A stretch of 63,881 bases of DNA, filler included, from Phoronis australis (taxonomy: Eukaryota; Animalia; Phoronida): the NCBI GenBank assembly GCA_002633005.1. It is 5 parts of 5 records of this genome, joined end to end, with 100 filler letters (N's around TTAATTAATTAA, not from the genome) between each part and the next. Parts side by side here need not be neighbours in the genome. Positions count along the whole stretch, not along the records: positions 1 to 21,471 come from NMRA01000707.1; 4 more parts are not named here. One strand, 5' to 3'. The notes under the pieces are model-generated. The model was given only the letters and a program-made list of their open reading frames with translations. It was not told the DNA's origin and ran no database searches. The position numbers and the translations under genes are program-made. Positions 1 through 38,173 of the stretch are shown one piece after another (the first letter of the stretch is position 1; every line of letters begins with the position of its first letter).

Positions 1-2479
1 CATGTCACACCAAAAAACCGGCTTAAACGGCGTTAAGAGGTTTTTTTCTTCTATAACTCGGACCATAGGCCTTTAAGCCATGTTTAAGAATAATCTGCAT
101 TTCACAAAGGTCGCTTAACTTTTAGACGAGGGGTTTAGTAAGGTCAAGTTTAGACCTGGTCCACGTCAGTCAAATTTAAAATTGGACTTGTTCAGACCCT
201 GGTTTAACTGTTTAATAAGTCACACTTGCATGATATAGGTACAACTGAATGATGCTGCAATGTTAATTTACGAGGCAGTTTTTGAGCGAATATGGACTAT
301 TTTCAATATTCAGAAACGAACTCCAGGGCTCAATTGAATAACATTTTTTCATATCACTTGAAATGTAATAGCAATTTATGTAATATTTTAGCAAAAACTT
401 TTATCGTATATTATGGATTTTTAAGTAATAATTTTTGTAGCTGAAATATACGGGATAAGATAAGGATTAAGTAAAAAATAATACTCAATACATCAACAAA
501 GTGGAGTAGAAAAAAAAGAACATATCAATCAATATATTTGTTTATTTTAACTTTGTAAAACATCAATTCAAAAGTCATTACGACACATTTGAAGAATTAT
601 ATGAAAACAACGTTCCATGTTTGTTATACATTATGCAATACATTTCAATATATAAAATAATGCAACAATCCCAGCCATGAAACCTAGCACTTCTACAGTA
701 CTGACGTTCTGGAATAATCTTAATGTAAATGACAATAATTTTGATTTTGCCAACTTACCAATAGTTGTTCAGGATAATGCATAAGTTTGGAATGAACGTA
801 CAACACAATGGTAATTCCCAAAATTTTCGAAGAAATAACATTTTTATAGTTTCACAGAAATCACGCTAGCCTTTGATTTTCAAGTTTGAAATTTAAAACC
901 CTGCTTGTGTGTTCACAGGGAATAATGCATCAGTAAATTAATTTTGTTGTCACGTAGTTATACACTGCAACACAGAAGTTATGTTTCAAAGTGAGCTCTG
1001 CCAGGCAAAGTGATGACTAAAATTCGAAACACAATCTTATCGGCTGTGGAGCATAGCAAGTGAATATATGGGAAACAAGCTGTTTGGGTGCAGCAGAATG
1101 CATCAAATAATAAGGTTCATTTGCGAATATAATGTTTCCATGAATGGACTGTCTACAAGTTAGCCAAATGATCCACGTATAGGATAGTATAATCTTCAGT
1201 AATATAACCTGAGGTAGGCGTATGGCTAGGATAATGCAGAGTAGTGCCTGGACATTGATGCAAACTCATCAACTCATAGTGTTTACTCTAAACTAACGTT
1301 TCACACTTTTGTTGAGGAGTAAAATGTTCGTCATCGAAGAGGCAACTACACAGTCGCATATTTTCTAGCCCCTGTAATAATTTCTCTGCTACTTCAGATC
1401 AGTATACACATATTCTCCACCTAAAGCGCACATCAAAATCAATGAATGGCAGATAAAGTTTTGGCTTCGATCAACTCGCAGTCCCGATTGTTTGAGGTTT
1501 AGTGATATATCTGACTCTTTGCAAGGCTTGGATTTGATGGTACAATGTTCTTAGCCTGGAAGTTAAAGGTGCGATCTATCAACTTCACTGTTAGAATATT
1601 TGAGAAACGTTTGTCATTTAATCTTAACTTAATTATGCTAGGTTTACGTACAGTTTCTTTTTTGTCATTTTCCACTGATTTTTTTTCCTAATTATTTCTT
1701 ATTTTGCTGAGTATTTCCATCACTTTGACTGAATCTCGAGCCCACTCTCCTCTCCACCAGCGTCACTCCCAACTTACGATATTTTCATAAACTACCCACT
1801 ACTATAAGATGACGAATTTCTAAGTCAAATTATTAACATTTACAAAGTTGTATCTGTCTAATGAAGTCCTGCATGACGTAGGTATTTAAAGACTTCACAG
1901 ACCACGTTTCTATGTCTGCCAAAGTCTTCGAGTTTCTGACTTAAATGATAGTCTTGTTCTGTATGTCGGTATCAGGTTAAATGGACTGAACGCCTATCAA
2001 CTGAAAACAAAGTAGTTAAATTTCAGAGTTAAATAAGAGCATCTTAATTTAAAATTTGGAGAGTGTTCCACTGCTGATTTTTTTGAACCTACTTGCTCCG
2101 GAAATATCTTGACATCGTCAATGGTGTGTTGGGTCACACTTGACCGTAATAACAATGTGCGTAACCACATTTACAGCATTCTTAACGCCACTCTGACAGT
2201 TATCTATCTCATGACAGCTGGCAGAATGTATAACGTATTGCACCGTTATTGATCCATAACCTTTCAGTATGGAGCTCAGGCAACAGTGTAAGATTGAGGC
2301 AGTCACATATGGGCGTAAGAAAGTTTGCTTACGGTGTGTGGGGTAGGTGGAGGCGAACTAGACGTGAGTGCGACATCCCTCTGTCCACGTTAGTTTCGCC
2401 TCCGCCACAGGCCGGTTCATCACAGATCGTCCGATTCCCTTTGTACCTCGGTCGACACCCATTACGTCCCTAGACAAGA

Positions 2480-2860
2480 GATGTGACTTATGAAAGACAC
2501 AAGCAGGCAAATAGTTTTGCGTTGACTGAGTCCAAGTTTGAGACAAGTCTGTATTTAGGTATTAGATCCTAGGAATTGAAAATAATTTATCTTGTTGTTA
2601 TTGTCGTTTCATAGAAAATATAAGTTCATCATTTTAAACGTTAGTGTTATAACCAATTAAGTTAACTCCACAAACACGGGGACATTTCCTACGACAGAGA
2701 TTGCCATGGATTCATTCCCTAGAATAACTAAATGGAAAAAATCTGCAATGTTCTGCGAAATTGCTTTAACGACGTTTCAGTTCCGATCTACCCCTTCTAC
2801 TCTACGTAAAAATTATTTCCTACCTCCTGGTGTTTATGGACAAAAGCTGCAAGGTCTTAG
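2480..2860 (+). repeat. Diverged direct repeat, copy 1 (partner ~10085-10500)
   Basis: Shared blocks such as gagattgccatggattcattc, gcgaaattgcttta, atggacaaaa..tgcaaggtctt. Confidence 0.8.
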
Positions 2861-3181
2861 ACAATGAGCCAGATCCCTAGTAGAAGCAGCTATTGGCCGT
2901 TTGCATGAAACCTATGTTGCCTAATTCTCAGAGACGCAGGCAGAAGCATGATTCTTTAACAGTATGTAGACATCTACGGTAGAGGGTGTACAGCAGACTG
3001 CATATCTGAATGTGTTTCAGTTTCTACCTGATAATACGGAAAGGCATTTTTTCTATTGATTATGGTAATGTTAGCAAAAGTTTAATGACACTTTGTTTTA
3101 ATTTCCTATACTTGTTTCTCCTTTTATATACCTGTTTCCCCGTAACATGATCTGATGCTTAATTACAGAAAACTAGAAGTC

Positions 3182-3263
3182 ATGAAGTGCATCACCGTAT
3201 TCATTCTGTTGATGCTGGCTGTGGGATGCCTCCAGGCGGTGCCGGAAGATGGCGAAAACAACA
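3182..3263 (+). CDS. Defensin-like gene, coding exon 1 (signal peptide + acidic segment)
   Basis: gtcATG start; MKCITVFILLMLAVGCLQA-VPEDGENN; donor gtgag at 3264; possible upstream acceptor ttacag at 3168. Confidence 0.75.
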
Positions 3264-6200
3264 GTGAGAACAATAACTGTCATTGCTCTGGGCGGATTTC
3301 CGCAAAAAAATTTCAAGTTAAAATGAAGTGATCATGGCCAGTCCTTGTAATGCCTGGCGATATCTTGCGAGGTTTTGCGTTTTCGCTAGTTCCATGCCTC
3401 CGCAGAACAGGAGCCTGATCAAACTTGCTAAAACTTCAAGTTTAAAACTGCATTCTGTCCTACGGCTTTGATAACCTAAAAATTGAATTGGGACTTTCAC
3501 TCAAATCAAATCGGTGTCAGAATATTTGTGACCGCGATGGACATCTACTTTTCGTCTAAGAACAAAAATATCGAAGCCTTCAACTACTCAAAAACCTGTT
3601 CAGAGTTTATCGACCTTTGACAACCTCTCAATTCAGAATCAAAAGTGATGATTATATCCACTATCTGAGACTTGAGTCCACAATTCAAGATCAGAAGAGC
3701 GCGGTCATGTTTTAAAGCTCCTTATCACAGGTAAGTGTTGATAGAGGCGTGTGATAAAGGAGTTATCAAGCGACAAGATTTCATACAAAAGAACTAGACT
3801 GTAATATCCATACCAACTCTTGGACAGATACCCAGCACCAGCCCACGGGTTGAATAATACGGTCATTGCCTGTTTTAACTTTAATTGGTCTAGGTGGACT
3901 GATTAAGATTGATGGTACATTAGCTACTAAAGGCCAATGAACCCAGAGGTATTTTGGAGTCAAAACATCCTACTACGCTGTGCTGATGTTTTAAACAAAT
4001 CCAAAACGAAATGCTGAATATAGGAAAAACAAAATATAAGCTCAAAAGGCATGTCAATTGACTCTGACTTTTTTCAATACTTCGATAAAACTGGACAAGT
4101 AATGAAAAATTATAACGAAAAACAAATAAAAAGTACATACACTGGGAGTATGGATAACAAAATTTCTACGCCAACACCGAAAAAAATCCAATGTTAAACT
4201 GTTCCATTCTTTGCAATTTTAAATGAAAATAAACAGTTTTTTTTTCCAGAGATATTTATTAACTCAACCAACCAGTACATAGTTGTGTGACAATATGACA
4301 TCTAGTTTAGTGTACATCAACAGTTAATAATTAGAATAAGTTATAGATTGTGAATATCTATTAATTCAAAGAAAACTAAAAAAGAAAGAATTAAACAATT
4401 TTATCACTGCCTCATTCATCACCGACAGACTAGGTGATTTGAAAACACATTTGAATTCGGGCTTTGCCCTCCCTTGAATGTCACGAATCTCTTGATAATA
4501 ACTCACAGTCACCATCGTCTGTGGCATAATGCATATAATCATGATACTATAACATGAACATATAATTAATAAATTACAATTTGGAAACAAATTGTTTAAT
4601 AATCAATGGTAGGCTACATTGCCACAACTTCACATGGCCAAACTTGAAAATGATGACCAATCATAAGCAAGCTCCAAATTAAGATACATTAATGATGTGG
4701 TTTCGTAAGCCTCCCGAAAATAGGAAGTGGACCCTGGGTTAAATTCAAGACTTAATTGTTCTGATGAGTAACAAGTATGAAATAAATCGAATCCCAAATT
4801 TACATAAGTGTTTTTTCGTGGTGTTAAAGTCCAAGCATTGATCACCCAAAATACATGTAGATCGGTTTCATCCACGTACACCACAAATCCAAAACGTAAA
4901 CAGGGAAGTTCCAAAGCAGTGATCTCCCTAGGTAACAAGGACACGTTTAATCGTGACCTTTCATTCCATGAGGATATGGCTACTTAACGCGTAGCTGGAT
5001 CAGTCAGCGCTAAGCCTAGTGACATTGCCATACGGAACTGCCACTCATTAACGGCAACAGACATTTTCACGAAAGATGTCGCTCTTGTCGGTTGGCGACA
5101 AGTCTTTCACTTATGGCACATCTCATTTACAAAATACCCCGAAAAACGGGTGATAAGGTTAAATCTCGCGAGATCATATCGGTTCGTAGCCGCACCAAAT
5201 AAACGCTTCGTCATTGTTGTAATTTGAATAGGTTTTTAGCAGCTAGGCCGGACTAAGTTCTTAAAAATGGTAATTGTAATCTTTGTAGATGACAAAATCC
5301 GTATTTGTCGACTCGTTTATGTGTCAAAAAAGACTTATCTCCCTTGTCATGCATACTCGGGGAAATCCCTGTAAATGGAATCCCCGGGTAGAATCGCGAC
5401 GAATGCGAACGATATTGGAGTACCTGTAGCATTAATTGAGGCAATTTTAAAACGAAACACATCATTGAAACGGTTTACTTATCACTAAGTGAACATAAAT
5501 GTTCACTGTGCGATTAAAATAAAACTAGCAGAAGCACGGTTGACAGGTCAACTAATTGCGCTATTGACGTTCCCACACTGACCTGCATTTTGTTTGTTTA
5601 TGAGCCCTGTACTTGACCAAACATTAGTAGATCTTTGCCGTGCACTAATAACAATACAAGAACAGCAACAATTTTTTGGGAGACATCAGTGATGATATTA
5701 CTGATGATGAAGAAACTAGTGGTGACGTTTTGTAGTACTGTTCCAGTGGCGGATCAAGGACCAGAAGGGGGGTCCAACATGTAACCTCTGGGAATTGGGA
5801 AGAGCGCGGTTGTATATGTACAGGCGTACCGAAACTGACCCGGAGTATGAAACTTCTGTTCGGGAAATCTATCGACTAAAAAATCAAACAAATAAAAAAC
5901 GGGAACGAGAGCCCTCCACGACATGGGGTCTGAGTCCCCCCACTTCTCCAGTACTGGTCCTTGTTACATTTCTTCACGCGTTTCTTTTTCCTTGCTGCAT
6001 CCCCTGCCCACCTAAATCAGCCTATGTTTTCCAATTAGTGATGAAATTAAAGGAAGTTATTAAGTATTGTATGCTCACCCTAAGGCTCTGACATCAACAA
6101 GTGATGGTGTAAAATGCTTGCAAAACTAGGAATTAGCTTCCAACGTGGCAATGGTGGTAATCAACGAAGGTCGCATTGTGTTAGAATGGTGAGTTTAATG

Positions 6201-9200
6201 CAGACAAAATACTTTCAATAACATCTAGAATTTCTAAATCTGAGCCTGGAAGTTTTACGGAAATCTGGGAAATCTGCCAAAAATAATCAAAAACATCAAT
6301 TTATTCGATGCAGATGCACTAAAAAAATGCCTCCCAAGAGACACGACAACTTGGATTTAACAAGGAATCCAGCAGCCCTTTTAGGTCACCCTGAAGTACA
6401 AAAATTGGGACAGAATCGGAAATCCAAATCATTAAAATAAGATTTTCATGGGTGATTTTACTGTCAAAATTGTCCTTTAATTTTTTTTATTTTTAATAGC
6501 GTATCTCCACCAGTGATAGTGCTATCAAAGCAACAAATGTGCAGAGAACATCATGTAGGCAAGCATTCTTAACCTTAACTATATATATGAAATCCATAAT
6601 CTATAACATTTTAAATGCTTCTGTAAAAGCAATCATGTATTATACATTGACATTAGATGCTAAAGACACAATTGTAACGTTTCATTATCTCGGTATACCA
6701 TTTATTTTTTCCAAAACATATCTTAACAATAACATCTTATCACATGACACAAGTTCCTTTGGTATATACATGTATCAGTCTAGCAAATAAAAACATTATT
6801 CTTTGATCAAAACCCCTTAAGCATATTAAGCACTAAAATAGTTCTGTGACTAACTCACTATGTAACTGATTTTAACATCACACACACACATAACACACAN
6901 AACACACACACACACACACCCTCACACACACACGCACACACAAACACGCACACACACAGACACAAACACCATTTCTTGTAAAAAATATTCATACACGTAG
7001 CTTATAAATAAGAAATTCCCTCAAGATTTTTAAATCGAAAGCATTACGTCATGACTATATAACCAAAACGGGTACTGCCCCTATTATCTGCCTCAGAGTC
7101 AATAACTGAAATTGACTATTGATAGCTGTTGTCACTTACGATTTCTGCCGTTCGTCATTATTCTAGACCGGCAATCTAGAGACCAGTGGTTCGATCCCCA
7201 GTTGGGATCCTTATTTTACTCTGATTATTCGAAATGTTTCATTACTGGCCAACCTCAGAGTCTATATATTTACTATGTCATTTTTAAACCTGGTGTAATA
7301 TACCGCACCACCACTAAAGATCAAAAACTGAACAATAAGTTGGCATCACTTTTGCAACTTTTTCTTAAAGCAGATCCTCTTATAAACAAGAACAGTCATC
7401 CATCAGTTTTACAGTTAACTACATACTTAATTTCAAAAATCATTCACGCAAAAATTCTCTAGTTTGGGAGAGTGAATAATTATTTTGTTCGAAGTCGAAG
7501 CTAGTCCCAATTTTAAGAACTTCACACAAGTGTTTGTCAGAAATTCAAGGGGAATGGTAACAATTTATTAAATGTTTGTCATGAGAGTCGCTTTTTATGA
7601 ACTTATAGGAGTATTCTTGCAACCTGTTATGCTACAACATAGCGTTAGGAATTTGGAAAGTACGAAAAGATAAAAATCACTCATGCCTCAAGTTTCAGGA
7701 TGAAAAAAATAAATTTCTGCCATGATTTCTGTCTTCTGTCTCAATCTGGAGAGATTTTAATGTAATATATCACCGATCTATTTGCTATCATCAACTATGT
7801 CACCTTTGCTGAAATATATGTTAAAACAATTGTAAGCTATAAATGTGATCCATCTGAAAAATGTTCAACCATACACTATTGTCAGCATGATGATTAATAC
7901 ACGCAGCAGGCAATAGCCTCTGTACGGCACAGAGTTGAGGCTTTTTGGCAAACACCTACAAATATCCCATACGTTATCGCTACAGTGAAGTCATTCTTAG
8001 TCATACCAATAAGTAGTGAATGACACATGGTGACAGAAGTGGTAGCCCATGTGGACGATTTCCCACTTCTTTCACAATTTTCCAAAGAAGCGACTTGTCA
8101 TCCAGGTCCCTCATGGGAAGTCTAAGCCCACTTTTTTCTGAAGTCTTGCAAAGATCATCCAAATATGTACTGATTTTAAACAAGTTTCCGATCAAGTTGC
8201 TCATTTGAGTATTTAGACATGTTTGACAGGAAAGGCTTTGGTTGTTGATAATACTCAAATACTGAATACCCATGTTCATCTAACTCGGACTCAAAATTTA
8301 ACATGGTCTACTAAGTCGGACTGAAAATTTAATAATCTCTTTGCTCCTGTTGGCTTCTAAGAGACAGATGGCAAATCAATTAGAAAATGTTTTTGTCGAT
8401 CTTGAGACTGAGCAATGAGAATGCTGACATCCATTCTTGCTTATTTTTGCAGCTGTGTGAGTTTTGAATAAAACGGAATGCATGAGCTGCACATAAACAC
8501 AGGTCTTGTGTCCAACAAATCATTGTTGCATTGAATGTAAACGAGTTAAAGAATCCAAGTACTTCTGCTTAATGCAACATTTTTAACTTTGTGTGCGTGA
8601 GAGTCAGAGTATAACAGTTTGCCACGTAATATGCATGTCTTTGACTTTGCCTTTTTAAGTGGAGTATTACAGTCACCATCTGAAATTAAATATACGTTAA
8701 TAGTAAAGGCTTTCAATTTTTACTAACATGACTGATGTGCATCCTAAAATTATATGCGTTCAAGTGAGTTGACTTACGGCTGTAAAATTTTAATCATGCG
8801 GGTCACTTTTAGTACTGCAGATGGGAATTATGCTTAATTAACATTTTGCAGAAATTCTGTAGTTACAGAATTAAAACATGCGACTCTGCTCGCAGAAAAT
8901 GGTCCCCGGCATGTATAACAAGTTTTCAAGTAATTAGGTGTGATCAGACTGAACTCTGAAATCGAAGTCCAAGCGGCCACAGTCACGGTGATGTGTCGAA
9001 ATCAAAAGGTCACCAATTTATGTTCAAATCAGACCCCTTTTAACTCATCACCGTGCAGACGTACATGGCTATTCCAGGTTAGATTCCCGGTTCGGAGATT
9101 GATCTGAGTCGGCATTTACAACTGTTGTTCAGTAACATTTACATGGATTCAAAAAAGCAATAGGCCTACTGCCTAACCCAGAAATTGCGAGCCACCATGT

Positions 9201-9948
9201 TTACAAAAGCGCCGTCTACCGACCGAAATGATAGAAATGAGCTACTTTCGTGCAGGCTAATGTACTCCATATGAGTAAGTATATACACGCTGTGTGGGCT
9301 TAAGTAGTAAATGGGCAACAGAGGAAATTTTGGAAGTTGTCATTGAAATCCTCAACAATGTGGTAGTCAACTTGTATGCCTTCACGAACTGCACTGTTGG
9401 TCTAATCAGTGGCGGATTTAAGGAAGCCAAGGGGTCCATGACCCACCTAACATTTTCCAAGATTGCATTGGCAGTTCGAGAGTGCAAGTGTTTGACGGGA
9501 AAATCCTGTATAATACTCTGTCCTGCCCCCTCCCCTAATTCAGAGTCCTGTATCCGTCGCTGCTCATTGATAATCATCTGTTCTATTGATACATATCTGA
9601 CCTGTTCCACGTGTCTCATTATTTCCTTGACGGAACACACCCTCCTCCAACAACGCTATGCAACAACTTGGGTTTCGGTCACATTTTATATTTTGGTCGT
9701 GAAATTCCAACGCTGCACCCCACCGAACCTCATCCACTGGTTGAAACTGCATACGATTACTATTAGAATGGTAATGATGATCTAAGACAGCATTTTACAA
9801 GTGACTAATGTCCTCTATTTCAGGTTTGACTGATGACGCTTGTGAAAATGCGAGTTGCAACGCGGGGTGCGAAAATAATTTACACCTAAGTGGAGAGTGT
9901 TTTCCCTTGGCTGGCGAAAATAGCGTATGCGTATGTAACTATGTTTAG
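3182..9948 (+). CDS. Secreted 68-aa six-cysteine CS-alpha-beta (defensin-like) peptide, 2 coding exons: 3182-3263 and 9824-9948
   Basis: Spliced translation MKCITVFILLMLAVGCLQAVPEDGENN/SLTDDACENASCNAGCENNLHLSGECFPLAGENSVCVCNYV*. Hydrophobic signal peptide. Phase-1 GT-AG intron (A|gtgag ... gactaat-tcctctatttcag|GT). Cys spacing C-x4-C-x3-C-x9-C-x9-C-x-C with GxC. Confidence 0.8.
5744..5956. mobile_element. MITE of the CAGTGGCGGAT family (degenerate right end)
   Basis: Starts cagtggcggatc with a G-run; ends with a C-run and tccagtactg. Confidence 0.45.
6878..6969. repeat. Imperfect (CA)n microsatellite
   Basis: Directly visible. Confidence 0.95.
9407..9562. mobile_element. MITE of the CAGTGGCGGAT family
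   Basis: TIR cagtggcggat...atccgtcgctg; flanks ctaat/ctcat could be a degenerate 5-bp TSD. Confidence 0.6.
9824..9948 (+). CDS. Defensin-like gene, coding exon 2 (Cys-rich domain)
   Basis: Branch point ctaat, pyrimidine tract and cag at 9821-9823. Encodes six Cys. The TAG stop is followed directly by a gtaag donor. Confidence 0.8.
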
Positions 9949-10084
9949 GTAAGGCCCTACTTTTTGGGACTAATTCTCCATTTATTTTCATTTAACTAAA
10001 GGATCAATGTTTAGTTAATTAAGAGGGATTTTCGTCAATCAAAAGGAGCTCATCAAGAAGATGAGATGATTGAGAGAGATTACA

Positions 10085-10500
10085 CATATAACTTATAAAC
10101 GTCACAAGTATGCGAACAATTGAGAATTGAGTGATAAAGTTCTTAGTCTAAGTCTGTGAGAAGTATGCATTTAGAGATTAGATATTCTGGGTACAGGATT
10201 TGAAAATAATTTAAATTGTAAATCTTGTCGTTTTTTAAAATAGATGTTCATTTTAAACTTTATTGTTATGACCAATTAACTTGACCCTATATACACGTGG
10301 ACATTTTTGACGACGGAGATTGCCATGGATTCATTCAGGTGAATAACACAACAGAAAAATTCTGGAATGTTCCGCGAAATTGCTTTACCGACGTTTTAAA
10401 GCCCCTTTACCATTTCTACTATGGACTGATGACTAGCTGGTTCCCGCGAAAATTTCTTTGCTGCCACCCTGTGTTCATGGACAAAAACTGCAAGGTCTTG
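10085..10500 (+). repeat. Diverged direct repeat, copy 2 (partner ~2480-2860)
   Basis: Same blocks in the same order as 2480-2860. Confidence 0.8.
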
Positions 10501-12412
10501 GTTAATTTTAGTAATTGTATTTATGTGAAGTTGACAAAGGACGACGATGACTTTCCAATGAATCTGTGCCCCCCAGTTGTGATTTCATTTTTTTTTTTCA
10601 TTTACTTCTAATCTCCTTGACGGATGTTTATTGGATTTGGTAAATAGCTTTCTATTAAAGAAACAATGACATGTTCCTGGGATGGACTCGACGTATTTTG
10701 CGTTTTTTTAAGTGTTGTGTGGAATTGCATCATGCACTAAGCCTAGCATACTTTCGAAAAACTGTGGTTTTGAGTCCCCCGCATGAACGGAATTTACATA
10801 TTGTGAAATTTTAAGCTGGTAAATCGCAACAACACCCAATTGTTTAAATACTGGTTTGGAAACCAGGTAACTTGGTTATCACTGAAAGTATTATGTTTTC
10901 AAACCTAAATATCCGTACCTTTTATTTTTCTGAAATTGCAAACTCCATTGGAGCACTGCCACCATGCTCGGCCGCTTTTGTGTAGTACAAGAAGCATTGT
11001 GTGACCTTTGTATGCCCAATAACACGACACTTATGCTCGTATTCACGGTCCTCTTTTAACTTGAAGATCTTGATTAGTTTTAGTATGAACTTTGCTAATA
11101 GCTTGAATGGACTTTTTTCAAGCGCACATACAGGGTTTTGTCCAGGAGTGCTAAAAATGAACCAGCATGCACTGCAGGCAATGCGTGGGTTCTTAGTCCT
11201 TTACGGTGTTCAAAAACTGACCAAGCAAGGGGGAATGGGCACCCTTAACAACAATAAAACCTGCTTCTCTGAAGTATGAGATGGTGTATTATTAACTCAT
11301 CAGTACATTGAAATTGACTTTTTTTAGCTCTGTAATCCTATTATAGATTTTTTTTTTATTTTTGCACCAGCAAAACTGAAAATCCGCGAAGAAAAAATCT
11401 CTCATACGGCTTCCCATGATCTCCTTCGTCAATGATTTAGCAAAAAGAATGTAATTTGTTCTATTTTGCGTCTTGGTCCATAGATAATTGCACAATCGAG
11501 TTGCGCCTCCTAGAGTCTTTTAATCTAACTGGCAGTGACAAATTGGCAGGAAAGTGTGTGAGTTATGTAAAAAACTGACTGTACAAAAACTGTGAAAGAG
11601 ACAAGATTTTTTTATTATTGTGCTGGGCTGAACAAAGACAGCAGTAACAGATGGAAGTGAACTCATGTTCTAAAAGAATCCGATACAGATTTGGGAGAGC
11701 GATAACAATGCGTAAAGATGGCCTTAATAAAAAGAAGTGAAAATAATATTTTTGTAGGCTAAAATGAGAGGACAAAAAACTCAATAAATCCATCCGAACT
11801 ATTTTTTCTTGCATGTTATTCTTTCTTCTGCTATATAGTTATTTTTTCAATAACGTAAAGCGATGATGTGTTGTTGCTGACAAAAATCACCTTGTTCCCA
11901 AGAATTTTATTTGTCATATTTCAGAAAAAGTACAAAGTGGTGGTAAAAAAATGGTTAAAATAACTCAGAGACTCTTAAAAGACTCAGGCTCAGGTTTCTT
12001 TTGACAAGATCAGCTGATGCGCTAAGTTTCAAATGAATTGGTGATTTTGCATATGTAGCCCACCATCTGTTTTTTATATGGAATTGCTCTTAAACGATCT
12101 GAGTTGAGTCCCTTTTTGGGACTGATTCATGCCACTGGGCACAGGCGGTTTGCAAATTCGAGGATAATACATGTACTTAGTAGTCAGTTCCAAAATTGTG
12201 ATTGAGAATTTTTTACTCTGGAACATGACCACTCTTTTGCAGGAAATCTATTCTTCGAACTAAAACTAAATGCATAATTCTGACTCGTACTTTGAAAATT
12301 CTTCACACTACCTCTGTGTCAGTGTGTACTCAACACAAGGGTGCCTTTTCATTTTGTGTTCTTGTATGTCACTACTGCAATTGCTAATTTCTATTTTATA
12401 TTTCCCTTTCAG

Positions 12413-12500
12413 GCTTTTGAAAGGTCAAGTCACTTTAAAGACTTTTACACAAATGTACTGAAAACTAAGTCAAAATAAAGATCTGTCAAAGCGACTTTCA
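12413..12500 (+). other. Candidate 3'-UTR terminal exon of the defensin-like gene, with polyA signal
   Basis: Acceptor ctaat...ttttatatttccctttcag (ends 12412); AATAAA at 12474-12479; T-rich tract downstream. First strong acceptor/polyA pair I noticed after the 9949 donor. Confidence 0.45.
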
Positions 12501-13542
12501 ATTGTCTCTTTATTGCTGAATTTCTCTCTCCCATAAATACAGTGTATCTATGACTGCGTGTTGGAATTTCGATCAATTTCAAAACAAGGTCAGCAGTCAA
12601 CAGCTCTACAATCGAGCATTAACTACTCACGATGTGCCGAGTGTCTTACTACAATGTAGCTATAATTGTCCACAAAAGTGGTGCATATGTAGAAACATTG
12701 TTGTCCGAGTACAACAAATTTCATGGACGATTCGGGAGCGAGTCACGTGCCATTTTACGCAGAAGTCCATTGTCTGGCCAGCACTAAACCAATCTGTCAA
12801 ATAAATAATGTGGTTTATTGTTTTTTTTTACTATGCCCGGACCTTATTATGAAGCTGACATTAATCCCACAGGTATACATTCAGGGCCGTAATAATGTTT
12901 CCATTTCCCAATTGTCAAGTTAAGCTTTAGTCCACCAATTATTAGTACATGATACCCTGGAAATAATTTATCCAAATTTTCTCAATAAAGTACACTGATG
13001 ACTAAAAAGGTACTTTAGATAATTTATTTTATGCAAGTTTGGAAGGAAAATGATGTTATTACAATCATCATGTCAGCAGTGTTTTCTTTCACAGAGTCAC
13101 GTGTATGTTTAGTGAGGGTGCTTAACTGGATTTCCAAAACTGCCCTTATAAGAAATACTCACAGGCATAAGCAGAATACAAAAGACTGTTTGCTCATTGT
13201 ATAACTTTTCACGGTATTAAACACTTCTCTGCATCCGCCCCAGGTACACCATGATGATAATCAATCAATTGTGTCACACCCCACCCAGTGAGCATGGACA
13301 CACACCAAGTTGACTACAGTGATCTCATCCTCAGATATACTTATTTGAGGCTGACAATAACAAACCATATTAATTTTGATTTGTAGTTGAACATTACGTA
13401 GACATAACGGGGAATGTCATTTCATCAACATACTTGTTGGTGTCAGCATAGTTGCAAATTGGTAGTTGTTCTCATCGATTATTCATGAGTTTTTAAGACA
13501 GCATAATTTTGAAATTTCGTATGGCATATCATTAGTGATATA

Positions 13543-16500
13543 CAGCACACATCACGAAGTTTTGTCCTACCGGTCGGCTAGGAGTCGACCGGTCGTCTAA
13601 TTTTTAGTCGACTGGCAGCCGCCGCAGTGACGACTCATAAGGCGACCCCCCATCAGCCGACCTGCGAAATACACGGTCTTGTATGCCATAAACGCTCGGA
13701 CTTGGAAGGCTCTATCTTCGAAATCATATGGTTTCGATTTCCACGAACTTAGACAAAGACATCAAACACGGAATTACCACTGTTGAGGCTACAACCAAGT
13801 CTAGCTTTGTGCATTCCGTTTTCATGCATGGGTGACATTAAGAACTGTCCTAGTTATAGGTATCAGTTGGTGGTTCACGTTGTTTAAAAGAATATATATT
13901 TCCTGAAAACAAAATATTGACGAATAAAACAATATTGAACGGGAAGATGTGAATACGCAGTGGACAGATAATTGTTTCTACGCGGTACTTGCGCGTGAGT
14001 CCGTTTGGTAAAGCGATTACAAAGTCGAAAAAAAAATGAAAGAAAATACACCATGGTGCACGTTTTGAGAAGCAAAGCGTATAACGAGGTTTATGGCGCA
14101 TGACCTGGCCACTTTAGGCTGTACGTGACGCTGACTGACATCTGGCAATTGTGGCACCAAAATAAAAACATCATGCTGGTATGATTCCCCTTCTCCCCAA
14201 GTTCTGCACCTTTCAATGCGTTGACAAATGAGATTTGGTTCAGTTCCAGTAATAAACTCTCCTGTGCTCAGATGGGTATAGACTTACAATTTTTGAAACG
14301 GTGCTCAATCTTAAAAACTCCTAGCACCAGAGCGTCCTTTATCAGAAATGCCAATCACATGTAGCGTTGTAAGGGAAAGACGTTTGCGTTTCCGTAATGT
14401 GTGTCCACAAAGTGCTTTGAGCAGAGAGTACAAATTTGTTGATTTCGCTTTTCTCCCCGGAATACGGCCAACACGGTGTTTTGAAAAATTTCACTTTGGG
14501 GATCATTTTCTAAAATTGATATTTTTAGTTGGAGCATTCAGTAAGGGCCCACGTCTTGCATTAATTGTGCACGTGGGCAGAAAACGTGTATGCGTAAAGA
14601 AACTTTCGGAGTAGTGAGTTATCACGGCCCTTCATTAATCAACCGAGGCCAAGTACAAAGAATGTCTTCAAAATTTAGATATCAAAGTTTACGGCTTTCC
14701 TATTACAGTTCCACGGTCTAAATTATACGTTTATTGTAATATCGGTTGAATTATATGTAATAACACTGAATAGCACGTACGCGTACTATAAGCCATTTAC
14801 ATTTAAATCTGGTCACAATTCTTTTCCTGCTTTGAAAACAAAAAACAATTTTCATAATTTTCGAAAAGAACGTGAAATAAAACATTATTACTATAGAACA
14901 GATTATATATTTGAAAACGGCACGTTCGTTCATTGACCAACAAATGAAAGAACACGATGAAACAACTGCCACAGAACTACGTACAAGGGATGATAAGAGA
15001 GCATTTAAAGCTTCATGTCTCCAAATACAGTATTAGGCAAGCACATTACATCATACCTCGTCTCAATAAAATTTGTTGTCAATCATGGTAGAAAAATATT
15101 TGTATCATTGCCAAAAGGAGTTAACAAAAGCGGTCAGTGTCTGTAACTGTTGTGTCTATATTGTTGATGAATAAACGGCGGTCGAAATCAATTTTCATAA
15201 CATTGATTTATACCAAAGGTTTAAAGTCGCGCCCCCTTTGCATTTTGACTTGCGCTGATATCCACCGGAATCGATACAATAAACTTATACAAGTTGTATT
15301 TTAACCTGTGTCCAGAGTGTTCTTTTTTTGAATAACTGGGTTAATCATTTTTACGCTCTACATGAAAACACAGACTACCTGGGAACGTTTCTTCAGGATT
15401 ACATGTACATGTACCGAGTTACTCCGAAGATTTTATTTTCAGAGTTGTACCCTATTGAGTAGATGCGAAACGCAAAGTATGGTATTCTTATTCCAAAAGG
15501 CTCAGAAAGTTCTAGCCTTGGGGCGAAGCTAAATTAAATATAATACGACTGTGCTGATCTGGGGAAAAACTGACCAAATACAATCTTAGTCCTTGTGTAA
15601 TCTAAATTATTTACCGGCGTTGCAACAATTCATTTCTACCGTTTTTCTGCTGCTAAAATTGCGGTGATATCGTTTGTGCCGGCTTTCGGCGCAATGAAGT
15701 ATTGCATCACTTATTAGCCAGTTTCTTTTCCCAAGATTCTTCAATTAAATGTTCTCCCTCGAAGTTGCGCAAACGTCAGCGATATGATCAGATTTGGTTT
15801 CACTTCATTATAAGTTTTTAGAATTTTGATATCATTAAACCCAATTTTAGAACAATTTCTTTCGGCGATGTTGTCATCACCTCCTGGTAGACCTCGAAAA
15901 AAACTCTGAAATTGGTGAGTGTCACAAATGTAATCGTTTCAAAACGACGACTTACCTTTCTTTGTTACAAAAGGTGGAGTCTTACAGAATAAAACGAGAG
16001 CGCTCGGAGGAGCGACACTTGGCGAAATTACGCGAGAACAGGACGACGGGGAGGACGACGACAACGATGATGACCATGAAGGCGGAGATTATGAACAACA
16101 CGATAACATTCATGTGACTAGCCAACAAAACAGTAGGAAAGAGCATGCAGTCTTGTTCACGCAACCGGTAAACTGGCAACAGTGCGAGAGCGCTCGGAGA
16201 AGCGACACTTGGCGAAATTACGCGAAAACAGGTCGACGGCGAGGACGTCGACGACGACGATGATGACGATGAAGGCGAAGGTTATGAACAACACGATAAC
16301 ATTCACGTGACTAGCGTTTAAAACACTACGGAACTGTACAGATTTCTGATTGGTTAATATACATGGCAAGGAAATCCCGGCACGCAAAACTATTTGCAGA
16401 AAACGCCAAATATGACATTTTTTCTCCCCGAAATAACCACTTCCCTCCAAGTGCTAGAAAAATCTGACTACAGATTCAGAATGCTCGTCCTCTCTCGATT

Positions 16501-19500
16501 TTAACTACCGTATGTGGTCATAGTAAGCCCCTTACCAGCTACTTTTTTGGCAAATTTAATCTGTCTGACAGCCACCAGAAATGACACCCGGTTTCTCAGA
16601 CGGCAGGCAATAGTGGTTGATAGCAAATGACAGCCACCAGTTTGCATCAAAAGTAGGTAAAAACTTGGCTTTTCTCGTTCAAAAACACAAGTAAATCAGT
16701 TTCCTGGCAATTGTTGTCAACAATTTACTCAAACCACCGGCCAAACCTGACACACGCCCTCAACATAAATTCTAGGCCCTAGAAAATGCTCCTTGGCGCG
16801 GCCTCTGGCCTAACTCTTCAGTGCTACATACAGTCTTGAGCGACACTAGGCAAATTTAACGACGATGATGATTGTGATGACGAAAGTGGCGATGATGAAC
16901 AACATCATAACATTCACATGACGCACTTAGATGTCATAAATCAGAAAGAAATAGGCTACACTCTTGTTCAATAGAAGCTTAACCAACATCAAAGCAGCAA
17001 GATCGCTCAACAAAGAAACAGAGCTATCAGAAAATCTCCAATAATTCAAAAAGTAGACGTCCTAGCCAAAAATGAAAGATATCATCTGAAAGCGCGTTTA
17101 AAACTCTATCTAAATTGATTGAATTTTTTCCGAAGTCGAGGTGCGCATGCGCGAGTGCCAATATTTACACCATCTTTAAACGGAAGTAAGCAATTCCCGG
17201 TTTAGGTATAGAACACATACATGTACGGCCCATTAATTGTGCTGATTTGCAGCTATGTAAATAAAAATTGCAGCCTCCAGAAACCTTTTAATCTTAAATT
17301 GAAAACAAAATGACCGCCACAGCCGCCATCTTAGATCCGATTATGACGAAAAACAATAGGCTTCTAGTACTTCCAGAACTGCGTGTTATGTGTTAACTTC
17401 GTGATAATCTGAGGAAAATTCGACCTGTATAGTGCGAACACCGAAAAAAAAACTTGACGGAAGACCAAAATACTTGGCGAAATATATTTCACCAAGTGAA
17501 AAAGGAAAAAAATTGACGTCAGAGCAACATACTTGGCGAAATTTTTTTCGCGAAGTAAAGACAAACTTGATGGAAAGGCAACATACTTGGCGAAATAAAA
17601 TTTATTTCGCAAAGTAATGAAAGCTCTCCGAGGAGCGAAACTTGGCGAAATTAACCAAAAAATAACTTTAAAGATGACAAGAAATAACGACGACAGACAT
17701 TAAGACGAAGATGACAGCTATGATGACAATGGTGGCGATGGAGGACAATGCAAGTTATAATACCATTCAGATGACGAACCTAGAGGTCAGAAATCACTAA
17801 TATATAGGCTACAGTCTTGAGCGACAGTTGGCGAAACAAAATGGCCGCCACGTCCGCCATTTTGAATCCGATCATGACAAAAAACAGTAGGCCTCCAGGA
17901 CTTTCCGATCTACCCGTCGTGTGCGAATTTGGTGAGAATCAGAAGAAACTTGCAACCTGTAAATTGCAAACAAAAAAAAAACTTGACGACAGAGCAACAT
18001 ACTTGTCGCAACTCGAAGAATTCCGCCAAGTAAAAAACATTGTTGCAGAGCAACATACTTGGCGAAATAAATTTTGCCAAGTAATGAAAGCGCTCCGAGG
18101 AGCGAAACTTGGCGAAATGAACCAAGAAAACCACGTTAGAGATGACCAGAAAGACGACCACAAAGATGATCACGAAGATGCCAGCTATGACGACGATGGG
18201 GACGATTATGGACAATGCAAGTTCTGATATCATTCATATGACGATTATAGAGGTCAGAAGTCACTAAGAAATAGGCTACAGTGTTGTGCGACATTAACTG
18301 AAGTAAAGACGACGTCAGAGATGATGACGAAGATGACGAATATGATGATGGTGGTGGTGATGATGAACTTTATCATAATATTCATATGACGAACTTAGAT
18401 GCCATAAATCAATAAGAAATCGGCTACAGTCTAGTTCAATAGAAGATAAACCAACATCAATGCAGCGAGAGTGCTCAACTAAGGCACAGCGTTATCACAA
18501 AATCTCAAATAACACGAAAAGAAAACGTCCTAGCAAAACATGGAAAACATCTTCTGAAAGACCGTTCAAAACTCTAATTTGATAGCTTCACATAATTCCG
18601 TCAACTTTTCAAAAAAACTGAAATTTTGCGTTCTTTTAAATAAATTCGAATTCAAATAACTCGAAAACGGTCAGTCTGAGAAAAAAAGTCATTTGAAAGG
18701 GTATAATTCAACGAATATACATGCAACAACTCCCGTCATTCTCTTTTCCCGTTCAAAATGGCATTCGAGCACGACTGAAAATGGGTCAACATGGGCCAGA
18801 TCCGCCATCTTGAAAGCGACACCGGTTTTTCAGCTCCGAATAATAGCGTGTCAAAACACTAATACCTGAAAAACGTCGAAGCAATTGGTCCTATAATGCG
18901 CCCTCTACAGGAGAAACCGTTTTTCCCCAAATCGAGGTGTGCATGTGCAAGTGCCAATATTTATTTTGCCAAGTAAAAAACAAGTATAAAAACAAACTTT
19001 ATAAAAAAGCTACATACTTGTCGGAATTCGAAGTAATGACATAAGATATTTTTAGCTTAATCGGCTGTAACGGGCAAGGTTAGTGTCAATTGACTCCATG
19101 ATTATGCATGCCAACCCGCCTGTATTGAGCTCATGGTGACGGAAGTTTCACAACTAGGTGACTTGCGTAACTGTCCGGGCTGTGTGCAATTTCGAGGTCT
19201 GTCAGAACTCAATACACAGTGCCACCTTGCTGTATTTTGACGAAAGCCTTCGTACACCTAATTGGCTAGAGAGTAATTTTCTAACTTCGAAGGGATTTTA
19301 ACACCAAAAATGACAACCAATTCAGAATGATGATGAGTCATGGCTGATACTACGTGTATAACCAATCACTTTACTCCGTTTCCATGTGCCATGATCTTAA
19401 TATCTGCGCCATGTGCTAACCATTGTTTATGTTGCTCCTAAAATAAACTTTTGTTCTATTTGATGTACCAACATATTTAATTTAAAAAATTGTACAAAAT

Positions 19501-22913: not shown

Positions 22914-24130
22914 CTAGGACTATAAGTTGGTGACAAGTGATACCATACTCCTTGCACTTGATAGACATTTCACTCATTTTGAATCACAATATTATTTTAG
23001 ACTAAAAGATATCTGAAAGTTTCATACAAATCCGATAAGCTCTTTGTAAGATACGATGTTCTGAAGTTAGCCAAGTTTGGAGTTTTTTTTTAGGGTCCCG
23101 CATAACCTTAATATGGCTTGCGCTCAGTGAGGCTAGTATGGCCACACATCTAAGCCTGTGTTTTCCAAGTAAGCGTAAAGCAACTTTAGAATAAGCCTAC
23201 ACAAGCCAAATGGTGACCACTGAAAAAATGACGAATTACGAAAGTAAACAGTAATTCCCACAATGCTTGCTACTTCCGGTACCTCATTTAGGAACACACT
23301 AGTAGCATGTCACAAATTGTTAGCGTTACTGAACACACCCTTGGTTAGACATTTAATAAAACAGGACGCAAGTCAAGGTAAACAGGGTAACTCACGGCAT
23401 AGAGGCGAGACCAGGTGTAAGAGAGTTGCGCTTGTTAGATGGACGCGTCTTGTCTGCCAATTCAAACCATGGGTCGCGAACCTCGCCCAGTCTGGCTTTC
23501 AAAAAACTTTGGAAAANCTAGGACTATAAGTTGGTGACAAGTGATACCAGACTCCTTGTACTTGATAGACATTTCATTCATTTTGAGTCACAATATTATT
23601 TTAGACTAACAGATATCTGAAAGTTTCATACAAATCCGATAAGCTCTTTGTAAGATACGATGTTCTGAAGTTAGCCAAGTTTGGAGTTTTTTTTTAGGGT
23701 CCCGCATAACCTTAGTATGGCTTGCGCTCAGTGAGGCTAGTATCTTGTGAGTATGGCCACACATCTAAGCCTGTGTTTTCCAAGTAAGCGTAAAGCAACT
23801 TTAGAAAAAGCCTACACAAGCCAAATGGTGACCACTGAAAAAATGACGAATTACGAAAGTAAACAGTAATTCCCACAATGCTTGCTACTTCCGGTACCTC
23901 ATTTAGGAACACACTAGTAGCATGTCACAAATTGTTAGCGTTACTGAACACACCCTTGGTTAGACATTTAATAAAACAGGACGCAAGTCAAGGTAAACAG
24001 GGTAACTCACGGCATAGAGGCGAGACCAGGTGTAAGAGAGTTGCGCTTGTTAGATGGACGCGTCTTGTCTGCCAATTCAAACCATGGGTCGCGAACCTCG
24101 CCCAGTCTGGCTTTCAAAAAACTTTGGAAA
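22914..24130. repeat. ~600-bp near-identical tandem duplication joined at a single N (23517), probably haplotype overlap
   Basis: 22914-23516 vs 23518-24130 differ by a few SNPs and one short indel. Confidence 0.8.
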
Positions 24131-24147: not shown

Positions 24148-27100
24148 CTGAAACAGACAATTACTGCAATGGAGACTACAAGCCCGGGCCAGGTTTACAT
24201 CCAAAAAACTTTAAGGAAAATCCAAAGACTTCTTTTCATACATTTTAGATATCACAACGATGACCTTCTACTTTTTATAATAAATTGAAATAATTATTTA
24301 AGAGCCCCTTTTCAATTTCCAAAATTCCAATTATTTGGATAAAAGATAATAAAATTCATGAAGGGCTGTTACACAACAAGTACACATAAATTTTTATAAA
24401 CAAAATTAAAAAATATGTCTACTACAGTGTGTATAAGATTTACTGCATTCATCTAATTCTAGTATTTCTTCAGTTGGTCTGAGTGGTATGTGGTTCTGGT
24501 TTCTTTGTAAATACAACATGTCGTGATAAGTATGATGAAACTGCATCGTGCATTTTATCAGCATTAATTTTTAATTTTCTAATAAAACAGAAAAATTATA
24601 AATAAGGCAGAGCCGTGGTTTATATAACACTAGACGGTCATGCAGTCCTCCGTTTTGTTACCAGTTGCAGGACACTGTATGACAATGTGAGAATACAAAT
24701 AAATTCAGTTTGTCAACTACTGAGATGCCAAAAATGGACTCAAAAACAGTAACATGTCCACTAGGTGGCACAGAATATGCCAAATCTTTCTGACAGGAGA
24801 AATCCTATCCTTAATAGAAACCTATTCGCCAAATTTCACAAGAACCCAACAAGGAACTCTGAGCATACAGACTGAGGCAAACGTAAAAAAATTTCCACTA
24901 GGGGGCAGAGTGATAGTAGGATCGGACCGAATCTCATCATGTGTGACCTGCTTCATAGGAATACTTCTGCCAAATCTCATTAAGATCCTGCAAGGGGTTA
25001 GTAGATACAGCAGTGGATGGCAGATGCTGAGACAGAGATGAGGGCAATATGCACCTACACAACGTATATGCGGGTGCATCAAAACTTTGGATCACTCATT
25101 ACGTCAGGGTCACTCATGACGTTGGGGTCACTCATTACGTTGGGGTCACTCATTACCTCTTTGTAAAACGGCAAATCTTCTGGATTCTGGCTTTCCAGAA
25201 ATTTTTGTTGATTAAACAAGTTTATCTCAGGCTTGATGTGATCCAGCACACAACTAAAATATTAAAGAATTATAATAAACACTAAACAACATTATCAATG
25301 CCATTATCAATATCATAACCATACACACAGTAAATTCAATTGATGGGAACTTGGTGCCTAGTTACTTTCTTGCATTTCACTGAAAAAATAAATTACTTCA
25401 TACACAAACTAGCATAACGACTAGGACAGCATAATTGGTTTAAGGAACTTGTGGTTTATATATTTTATTGTATAAGAAGTGAACACCACAATTTTTGCAG
25501 GGACATATATACACAAGACTTAACAACAGTATGCTGACAGCATATTGGTGACATCTGCAAGAGGGCCCTTTGACAATAATCTACTTTCTAACCTCTAAAA
25601 CCTAGAGAGCATTATGTTTGTTCATAGATAGTGATGACTTTACCAACAAAGTGAATTACCCGAACAAGTTAACCATCATTTCTAAGAATGCTGACGAAAT
25701 CTGATGGTTACATCTCTTCTGAAAGGCATTAACTCTTTGTCTGTGTTCATCAATATTGGATGCTGTAGGCCTGAAATGACATTATGCTACAAATTCACCC
25801 ACTGACCTGCTTTAAATAGATTAGTATTTATCACACCAATGACATAAAAACTTGCATTTTAAAAATGACAAAGTGATATCCCTTGGCTTACAATAACAAA
25901 CTACTCTTGGCTTCACCAGCTTTACACCACTGACAGTTTCCTGTCACTACATCCCATTGTTCTCCCCAAGGTTCTTGAACGTGGTGGGACAACATGCTCA
26001 AATTTTACCACCACATTCCAATTTTGAGCTACCATGCTCATTTTTTAACAATTGCCATATCAGTCGTGACAATACAGTGTTTTTAGTTGATCTCAACTTG
26101 TAAAACGTTGAGTCACTAACTGTCACATTCTCCAGAATCCGCTGCAGTCTGAATAATGACATTGTTATCAAAAATTTACCCACTACAATCTAAATGCGCA
26201 CAAAAATAACCCAAAACACAGGACACAGTGCTCTCCTCTTCAGTATTAAGCTGAGCATAGCGATTGACAGCTGAACATTGTGATTGACAGCATTCCACAG
26301 TACTCAAATATATTGCTGGTGAGAACACTGTGACCACAGACTATGACCCTTGTTAAAGGGACCACATTGCATGATAATTTCACATTAGCTTAAATATGAC
26401 CAAGAACCTTGGAGACACTTGGTTGTTTATAATACTATCACAAAGCAATGCTAGAGAGTGAACCCACTGAAGAGTAATTTGGCAACCAATGTGCAAAGTC
26501 AAGTTATGATTATTTGGAAAAGATGAACAGAAGCATAATTTTGCAATTTACAGAATGACCAAGTTAAAGAGCATGTGCCTAATATATATTCATTGATTTG
26601 GAATACCACCAGGACAAAGATTCACCTCATTATCAATTGTTGCTTACCGTCCCACGCTGAATGCTTCATAACTGAGAATGATGCTGTTGAAAGTCTGCTT
26701 AAACAGGTTGACAATATCCACAGGCAGATTGGGTTGTAACACCGTGTCATCCATGACCACTTCTCTGTTGTCGAAGTCAACAATCACCAGGCCCTCCACC
26801 TATACCCAAAAATATTTTATGTAATCACACAAAACTGACAAGACCAAAAGAGCAGAAGTGAACAATGATGCCATGCTCAAAAGATGAGTCACACTTTTAG
26901 TATGAAGTTCATTCAGAACTGCATAAACATTATCACTAACAATATTTGTCTTCCATGTTCTCATCCTCATAAATACGTCTTTCTACTGGTTAGTACTACT
27001 GAGAATAGCAAATTTTAACACTTATTAAGTCATTACAAGTTTTTCTCGTTCAGTGAGCTTCCAGACAACAGGGGGTGCTGAAAATCAGAGATCTCTGCCC

Positions 27101-37390: not shown

Positions 37391-38173
37391 TTTGGACCAA
37401 ATTCAGCAAAACACGTGAGCCATTGTTTGCAAACCGCAACACTGATAAGATTTAGCCCATCTGCAAGTTTTCCTGGTCGGGCAAATCACAATCAAGGTCC
37501 ATATTCGGTGGCCACTTTTGGTGAAAAATGAAGGTTGTCATGTAAGTGTGAAAGCTGGGTTATTTTAAAGTAGCATCATTCCAGGTTTGTTATCTAAAAT
37601 ATTTTTGCACAAGAACCACCAAGTAAAAATTTTATGGCCCAATGCATCGCAGTTGTATAAAAGGGTACGTACACTAAAACTTGTGGTCACAGCCCACTTC
37701 TATCATGCTGCAAAAATACATAAAGTAGTTGCTAATTTAATAAGTTCTTGATCAAACTGAAGAAGTATCACATGCTTAAGTAAGAAAATTTATTACCTTG
37801 CTGATCAAGTTGTTCTGGATGATGGTACATTGCAGATATTTTAACAAAGTATATTGAGAACTTCTTCTCTTGCAATATGATTCTTACAAAAAGAAAATGA
37901 CATTTAAGTAACTACTTTTTTTCAAAATCTTTAATGGTGCTATTTGCCTAGTTTTCAACACATTCACCAGCTGGTCAAAATAGTTAAAGCAACCCAGTAA
38001 GCTCAGTGTTCAACTTGTAAACAGTAAAAATGGTACTGGTTGGGGTGTACCTAAACTACGCCCAATCAATAAACATCAAATTTTGACTAAGTTACAAATG
38101 TATGGGATGATCTCGAGTTTTGTGCTGCCTCTACTTGTTGGTTTGTTGCAAGTTGTCTTGAGAGATAGAGAAN

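What the first reader, a model, noticed from the sequence alone, without database searches (positions are those of the whole stretch)
3182..9948. Hidden gene for a strongly anionic CS-alpha-beta (defensin/scorpion-toxin fold) secreted peptide
Seen: two small exons, both missed by the ORF track and 6.56 kb apart, splice in phase 1 into MKCITVFILLMLAVGCLQA|VPEDGENNSLTDDACENASCNAGCENNLHLSGECFPLAGENSVCVCNYV*. The Cys pattern is C-x4-CxxxC-x7-GxC-x9-CxC. After the predicted signal cleavage there are nine Asp/Glu, no Lys/Arg, no dibasic processing site and two N-glycosylation sequons (NNS, NAS). Established: CxxxC + GxC + CxC is the cysteine-stabilised alpha/beta signature of invertebrate defensins and scorpion toxins; these genes often have a phase-1 intron near the leader/mature boundary; classical defensins are cationic. 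Inference: an unannotated peptide that uses the defensin scaffold for something other than cationic membrane attack, such as an ion-channel/receptor ligand, enzyme inhibitor, metal-dependent antimicrobial or signal.
Basis: partly seen in the sequence, partly recalled or inferred. Interest (0 to 1): 0.85.

Follow-up and report, generated by a model that had tools for sequence, protein, structure and literature searches.

The report
Acidic defensin-fold peptide gene, transcribed
This small invertebrate gene is transcribed and has no match in the protein collections searched; its two coding exons likely join to give a secreted, unusually acidic peptide predicted to have the defensin fold, probably an immune peptide, and acidic defensins are rare but already known.

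Summary
In detail: start, splice sites, six-cysteine spacing, nine acids, no Lys/Arg and two sequons are as stated. The cysteine pattern occurs in 0 of 200 resampled windows. No read joint 3263/9824 was listed, so that junction is inferred. AlphaFold gives helix plus hairpin; the best fold matches are CS-alpha-beta peptides (individually weak), and no true sequence relative was found. Reads also reveal paralogs sharing the leader exon, which continue into an acidic pro-piece ending in an R-x-R-R furin motif. This copy lacks that motif, and 5 of its 9 acids sit in what looks like an uncleaved pro-piece remnant; the core itself is -4. A neighbouring gene points to a spiralian host. Best reading: a divergent, anionic member of a lineage-specific host-defence peptide family that would act through a specific target or cation bridging, not cationic membrane attack. 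Function is untested, and anionic defensins are already published. New member of a known kind; moderate interest.

The parts
3150..3168 (+). Branch-like site and AG acceptor ahead of the leader exon; implies an upstream 5' UTR exon that was not located
   Evidence: Sequence; 16 paralog reads in run X3 leave the window at 3166 into other sequence; no convincing match of that sequence in the window
3169..3263 (+). Leader exon: 13 nt of UTR, then 27 codons and one base
   Evidence: sense-strand reads in X1-X3 and a contig in X4, partly from paralogs
3182..3238 (+). Predicted 19-residue signal peptide (Lys at 2, hydrophobic core, Ala at -1); SignalP not available
   Evidence: Hydropathy up to 3.4 over 9 residues; weak Pfam hits to leaders of secreted peptides, all under cut-off
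3264..9823 (+). Inferred phase-1 GT-AG intron, 6560 nt, full of transcribed repeats
   Evidence: junction not listed as a read joint
9824..9948 (+). Cysteine exon ending exactly at the stop codon
   Evidence: Sense-strand read depth 8 in X1 and 4 in X2, 0 in X3 and X4
9841..9936 (+). Six-cysteine core, predicted helix plus two strands (CS-alpha-beta)
9949..12412 (+). Second intron (TAG|GTAAGG ... TTTCAG), 2464 nt
   Evidence: 3 reads in X1 leave at 9949 into sequence that matches 12414-12443 exactly
9967..10019 (+). Stretch with look-alikes in other sense-strand transcripts, probably the 3' UTRs of paralogs (inferred)
   Evidence: 7, 10 and 32 reads in X1, X2, X3 and 2 contigs in X4, at under 90% identity, with unrelated flanks
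12413..12500 (+). Non-coding 3' exon with AATAAA at 12474; end approximate
2526..2858 (+). First copy of a 72% direct repeat that flanks the two coding exons
   Evidence: E 7e-52; only these two copies in the window
10142..10499 (+). Second copy of that repeat

Best explanation
This is a transcribed gene of at least three exons whose two coding exons likely splice to give a secreted, acidic peptide predicted to adopt the defensin (CS-alpha-beta) fold, and it probably serves in host defence. Shown: open reading frame, transcription of the cysteine exon, the splice to the 3' UTR exon, and paralogous transcripts with the same leader followed by an acidic pro-piece and an R-x-R-R motif. Inferred: the leader is cut after residue 19; three disulfides form (C1-C4, C2-C5, C3-C6); with no furin site, the acidic remnant of the pro-piece stays on, giving a 49-residue peptide of about -9 (core -4), possibly N-glycosylated. 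It would not bind microbial membranes by charge; I commit to binding of a microbial surface or secreted target through the hairpin, with divalent cations bridging the acids, alone or in synergy with other family members. Odds by step: gene real and transcribed 0.95, junction as drawn 0.85, fold 0.9, immune role 0.55, cation-bridged or target-specific mode 0.3.
For: Reads and splicing; the 4 codons that differ in RNA keep the frame and all cysteines. Leader-exon reads without the paralog variant at 3194 occur in X1 and X2 (10 of 18) but not X3 (0 of 18), and only X1 and X2 have reads on the cysteine exon. 4 unspliced paralog reads in X2 share the acceptor region 9786-9823 and continue into an acidic stretch with E-D-A, matching D-D-A just before C1 here (translated by eye), which ties this acceptor to the leader family. 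Model H8-18, E22-28, E32-38 with CxxxC in the helix, GxC and CxC in the strands, mean pLDDT 74. Pfam SLR1-BP 29.6 bits over cut-off 22.7. Leader + anionic pro-piece + basic site is the usual defensin precursor (PMC4996505, PMC5506212, PMC3390580 passages); anionic defensins can be antibacterial (PMC3234185); anionic AMPs can use metal bridges (PMC7596191 passage); oyster defensins act on lipid II without lysis and in synergy (PMC3390580 section 22).
Against: No joint 3263/9824 and no loose end at 9824 in 3 or more reads was listed (138 loose ends were cut). The X4 paralog lacks the 3208 variant, so some 'non-variant' leader reads may be paralogs too. Reads differ from the window at 5 sites in the exon and could come from a close paralog, not an allele. 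Fold matches are individually weak: 0 of 244 at E<=0.001, best Z 3.7, Atlas 0.79. No hit to the arthropod/mollusc defensin Pfam family; the His of the CxxHC consensus is absent. The paralogs' mature peptides were not seen. Six-cysteine spacing cannot tell toxin from antimicrobial (PMC5116183 section 6), and defensin-derived X-tox lost activity (PMC2728511 abstract). No induction, tissue or activity data.
Confidence: 0.5

Rival explanations
1. A decaying or freely drifting duplicate: still transcribed at low level, but it has lost the furin site and basic residues and does little.
For: Low depth (8 and 4) in 2 of 4 runs, none in the other two; 3 of 4 differing codons change the residue; paralogs have an R-x-R-R site that this copy lacks; flanking 72% direct repeat suggests duplication history.
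Against: All six cysteines, both Gly, the frame, the leader and two GT-AG introns are intact in the window, and the RNA form keeps frame and cysteines; one change adds a Lys and another an acid, leaving the core at -4; excess amino-acid change is also typical of immune peptides (PMC3390580 passage).
Confidence: 0.2
2. A non-immune secreted ligand on the defensin scaffold: enzyme inhibitor, receptor ligand (as plant SP11, LURE, brazzein) or channel-active toxin.
For: Best sequence and fold matches are brazzein and plant defensin-like proteins, with scorpion toxins close behind; short n-loop of 4; no cationic face.
Against: All matches are weak and driven by cysteines; KCxN is absent (GEC-F here; motif from PMC5116183) and there is no Lys/Arg in the window's form; only two aromatic residues; paralog precursor layout is that of antimicrobial peptides.
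Confidence: 0.2
3. The two exons do not belong together: the leader exon splices elsewhere or reads on into the intron, and the cysteine exon has another first exon.
For: No listed joint; paralog reads all leave the leader at 3256 (phase 0), 7 nt before the donor proposed here; the X2 paralog also starts its exon in phase 0 behind the shared acceptor; the leader exon can read on to a 49-codon frame.
Against: Phase 0 and 2 at 9824 stop at once, only phase 1 is open; 3264 is the only GT donor with a consensus-like context in phase 1 after the leader; no other leader-like exon or paralog in the window; other acceptor-like sites in the intron give no convincing frame (its filter did not list 9824 either); expression of both exons co-varies over three runs.
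Confidence: 0.1

Closest known systems
Six-cysteine CS-alpha-beta (cis-) defensins of arthropods, molluscs and fungi, short n-loop type
   Same: Six cysteines in the CxxxC / GxC / CxC array, about 40 residues on one exon behind a phase-1 intron, signal peptide, predicted helix plus hairpin
   Different: No basic residue, no His in CxxHC, no dibasic site, extra 3' UTR exon, no sequence relative found, Defensin_2 not hit
Anionic defensins: SpliDef, silkworm BmDefA (pI 4.12), Amblyomma defensin-2 (pI 4.44), as cited in PMC3234185
   Same: Net negative CS-alpha-beta peptide; mode of action open
   Different: Those are arthropod peptides; SpliDef has a separate 27-residue propeptide; this one is more acidic (computed pI 3.3 whole, 3.8 core) and from a probable spiralian
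Brazzein and plant defensin-like proteins (Pfam SLR1-BP, gamma-thionin)
   Same: Best sequence (E 0.016) and fold matches, same core spacing around GxC
   Different: They have a fourth disulfide and are plant proteins; the likeness is most simply convergence on a small cysteine scaffold
Short scorpion K+-channel toxins
   Same: Same cysteine array and short n-loop
   Different: No KCxN motif, no basic residues, no evidence of venom
Big defensin precursors of molluscs and lophophorates
   Same: Paralog leaders resemble their layout (signal, short anionic pro-piece; furin-type motif)
   Different: Big defensins are trans-defensins with a hydrophobic domain; this exon has the cis array; leader sequences could not be compared

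Membership tests
CS-alpha-beta superfamily | CxxxC plus CxC (cysteine-stabilised helix) and two further cysteines | tested here: met
   Spacing 4-3-9-9-1; criteria from PMC5116183 passages
CS-alpha-beta superfamily | Gamma-core GxC in a beta-hairpin | tested here: met
   G-E-C lies in predicted strand 22-28
CS-alpha-beta superfamily | Helix followed by two antiparallel strands | tested here: met
   Predicted only; 22 of the top 23 VIA rows and 46 of 50 Foldseek rows shown are CS-alpha-beta peptides by title (fold of each recalled), all weak
CS-alpha-beta superfamily | Disulfides C1-C4, C2-C5, C3-C6 | not testable with these tools
   The tool returns no coordinates; pairing inferred from cysteine positions
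Classical invertebrate defensin | Signal peptide | tested here: met
   Hydropathy and -1/-3 residues; depends on the inferred junction; SignalP not run
Classical invertebrate defensin | Mature peptide on one exon behind a phase-1 intron | tested here: inconclusive
   Sequence fits (criterion PMC6435467) but the junction was not listed in reads
Classical invertebrate defensin | Consensus CX4-15CX2HCX6-9GXCX4-9CXC | tested here: not met
   Spacing fits, His is replaced by Gly
Classical invertebrate defensin | Cationic mature peptide released at a dibasic site | tested here: not met
   Charge -9, core -4, no Lys/Arg in the window's form, one Lys in the RNA form
Classical invertebrate defensin | Antimicrobial activity, immune expression | not testable with these tools
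   Tissues of the runs are not given; no assay
Scorpion-type K+-channel toxin | KCxN motif with short n-loop | tested here: not met
   n-loop 4, but G-E-C-F (motif from PMC5116183)
Big defensin / beta-defensin | Trans cysteine array and hydrophobic N-terminal domain | tested here: not met
   Cis array, no such domain

The most novel reading that the evidence does not exclude
A recent module swap caught in the act: the leader exon, acceptor and 3' flank belong to a family of furin-processed peptides with a different mature domain (for example big-defensin-like), and this copy has captured a CS-alpha-beta module in their place, gained a new 3' UTR exon and become an uncleaved polyanionic peptide, in a lophophorate-like lineage with no described cis-defensins. 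Paralog reads match the leader, acceptor and 3' flank but none lay on the cysteine core at 82% likeness.
Probability: 0.2. Interest if true: 0.65.

Novelty: new member of a known kind. Interest (0 to 1): 0.38.

Why it matters
It adds an apparently uncatalogued peptide family from a poorly studied invertebrate lineage, and offers a natural pair for a standing question, how anionic defensins work: close paralogs with a cleavable pro-piece against one copy that keeps its acids. If the paralogs turn out to carry another fold, it would be a direct example of the exon-shuffling model of defensin evolution. Otherwise it is one more small defensin-like gene missed by annotation.

Tried and rejected
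No whole genome is held, so genomic paralogs could not be counted. No RNA holder was listed by the index; the four runs came by species label. Word-based protein searches found no candidate for the cysteine exon (22-70 aa) or a 61-residue frame holding the leader (33-107 aa); longer lengths were not searched for either. The HMMER search of 1.84 billion representatives gave 3 hits, all long tandem-repeat proteins whose scores come from summed repeats; rejected. NCBIfam: 0 of 2 proteins hit. Rfam on 1-14000: none. No local paralog by tblastn. The 5' UTR exon was not found. The big-defensin supplement holds mature peptides; three leader or pro-piece motifs had 0 hits in its 3 files, which says nothing on leaders. 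The Atlas search of the neighbour's exon gave no lineage. Earlier findings: none on this genome or sequence; the word search listed unrelated beta-defensin-type notes. No complex was predicted, as no partner is known. Paper searches listed no paper on cis-defensins of brachiopods or phoronids, but only open-licence papers are searched, and the 2018 brachiopod immune-gene survey cited in PMC7203481 was not read and may cover such peptides.

Full report
Observation. The window is AT-rich, intron-bearing animal DNA; no whole genome is held. Cysteine spacing is 4-3-9-9-1; there are 9 acids after the predicted leader and no Lys or Arg. A strict CS-alpha-beta pattern matches once in the window and in 0 of 200 resampled windows. 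At the acceptor only phase 1 is open, and 3264 is the only consensus-like phase-1 GT after the leader.

Transcription. Four runs with the same species label were listed, none as an indexed holder; about a fifth of each raw run was read. On 9760-10250 the cysteine exon is covered on the sense strand at depth 8 in X1 and 4 in X2, and not in X3 or X4. Three X1 reads leave at the stop codon into letters that match 12414-12443 exactly, behind a pyrimidine tract and AG, with AATAAA at 12474. The gene therefore has a third, non-coding exon. All covering reads differ from the window at 5 sites in 4 codons: Ala to Pro, Asn to Lys, Ala to Glu and one silent change, with frame and cysteines kept. Without DNA of the same animals this may be an allele or a close paralog.

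The key junction is not shown. One search listed no joint from 3263 to 9824 (138 loose ends and 282 differences were cut from view), and one search listed no loose end at 9824 in 3 or more reads; one X1 read reaches into the intron to about 9782. Indirect support: leader reads lacking the paralog variant at 3194 are 6 of 12 in X1, 4 of 6 in X2 and 0 of 18 in X3, matching where the cysteine exon is expressed (Fisher p 3e-4, descriptive only, since mates are not independent). Against: a paralog contig in X4 lacks the variant at 3208, so such reads need not all be ours.

A family. In X3, 20 reads match the leader and leave at 3256, after codon 25, into an acidic stretch ending R-S-R-R; an X4 contig leaves at the same place into a related stretch ending R-Y-R-R (translated by eye). 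In X2, 4 unspliced reads share the acceptor region 9786-9823 and continue into another acidic stretch with E-D-A-L. Our exon has D-D-A directly before the first cysteine. I infer that the 14 residues between leader and first cysteine are a remnant of the family's acidic pro-piece without its furin motif. They hold 5 of the 9 acids: computed charge is -9 for the 49-residue form (pI 3.3) and -4 for the 35-residue core, also in the RNA form. A stretch at 9967-10019 also has look-alikes in sense-strand transcripts (7, 10 and 32 reads), probably paralog 3' UTRs. No paralog read lay on the cysteine core at 82% likeness, so the paralogs' mature peptides are unknown. The paralogs appear to break in phase 0, 7 bases before our donor; this is unexplained and keeps the rival and novel readings alive. 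A 72% direct repeat of about 340 bases flanks the two coding exons.

Fold. Single-sequence AlphaFold gives helix 8-18 and strands 22-28 and 32-38, mean pLDDT 74, pTM 0.44, with the cysteine motifs in their canonical elements. Foldseek gave 244 matches at E<=10 and 0 at E<=0.001, led by brazzein, plant defensins and scorpion peptides; VIA-align gave 43 of 48161 chains at Z>=2, best 3.7, the top rows being defensins and short toxins. Each is weak; the agreement in kind is the evidence. Pfam SLR1-BP passes its cut-off; 9 solved sequences match at E<=10, best 0.016; the Atlas lead is gamma-thionin at 0.79. No true sequence relative was found.

Lineage. A neighbouring adenylyl cyclase 2-like gene scores best by summed tblastn against a brachiopod protein, then molluscs, among 120 proteins (no invertebrate deuterostome was named in that list). 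A spiralian host is likely; nothing finer is claimed.

Mechanism. Shown: reading frame, transcription, second splice, paralogs with pro-piece and basic site. Inferred: first splice, secretion, three disulfides, retained acidic tail, possible glycosylation. I commit to a host-defence peptide that binds a specific microbial target, with divalent cations bridging its acids, perhaps in synergy with paralogs (overall 0.5; the mode itself 0.3). Rivals: a drifting duplicate (0.2), a non-immune ligand or inhibitor (0.2), wrong exon pairing (0.1).

Literature, and what I saw. PMC3234185 (abstract, passages): anionic insect and tick defensins with antibacterial activity, mechanism open. PMC5506212 and PMC4996505 (passages): precursor layout, rare anionic cases. 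PMC5116183 (passages, section 6): criteria for the superfamily, KCxN, spacing cannot separate toxin from defensin. PMC6435467 and PMC5308243 (passages): phase-1 intron, its generality, exon shuffling. PMC3390580 (passages, section 22): oyster defensins, copy number, lipid II, synergy. PMC7203481 (passages, supplement searched for four terms): big defensins in brachiopods and phoronids. PMC7168163 (passages), PMC7596191 (passages), PMC2728511 (abstract). That SLR1-BP and the listed structures share the CS-alpha-beta fold, and that R-x-R-R is a furin motif, is partly recalled.

Verdict. [quoted passage not shown] New member of a known kind, interest 0.38; 0.65 if the paralogs prove to carry a different fold (probability 0.2).

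Noticed in passing
window 49735-52274, minus strand: Last three exons of an adenylyl cyclase type 2-like gene (Pfam PF00211); used only as a lineage marker.
   Followed up: partly
window about 25700-32100, minus strand: Exons of a DENN-domain gene (weak uDENN hit); one exon and its flank appear twice across an assembly gap (28533-29900 and 30127-31500, 98-99% alike), probably a haplotype duplication in the assembly.
   Followed up: no
window 22914-23517 and 23518-24130: Near-identical 600-base tandem copy across a single N, probably an assembly artefact.
   Followed up: no
window 7163-7237 and 53130-53210, 45983-46127, 63687-63831: tRNA-like short repeats; the copy at 7163 draws many reads from elsewhere in the transcriptome.
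   Followed up: no
window 15975-18600: Family of degenerate repeats with Asp-rich reading frames (D8 and D12-D16); nature unknown.
   Followed up: no
window 38131-38898, 41136-41766, 47377-48141: Fragments resembling gag and reverse-transcriptase regions of retroelements, judged by eye.
   Followed up: no
window 56615-56953 and 57724-58002, plus strand: Two protein-like open frames with no Pfam hit.
   Followed up: partly
window 9110-9132: Short repeat-borne stretch that faintly resembles the end of a paralog's 5' exon (score 26, below the best chance-level hit of 28).
   Followed up: partly
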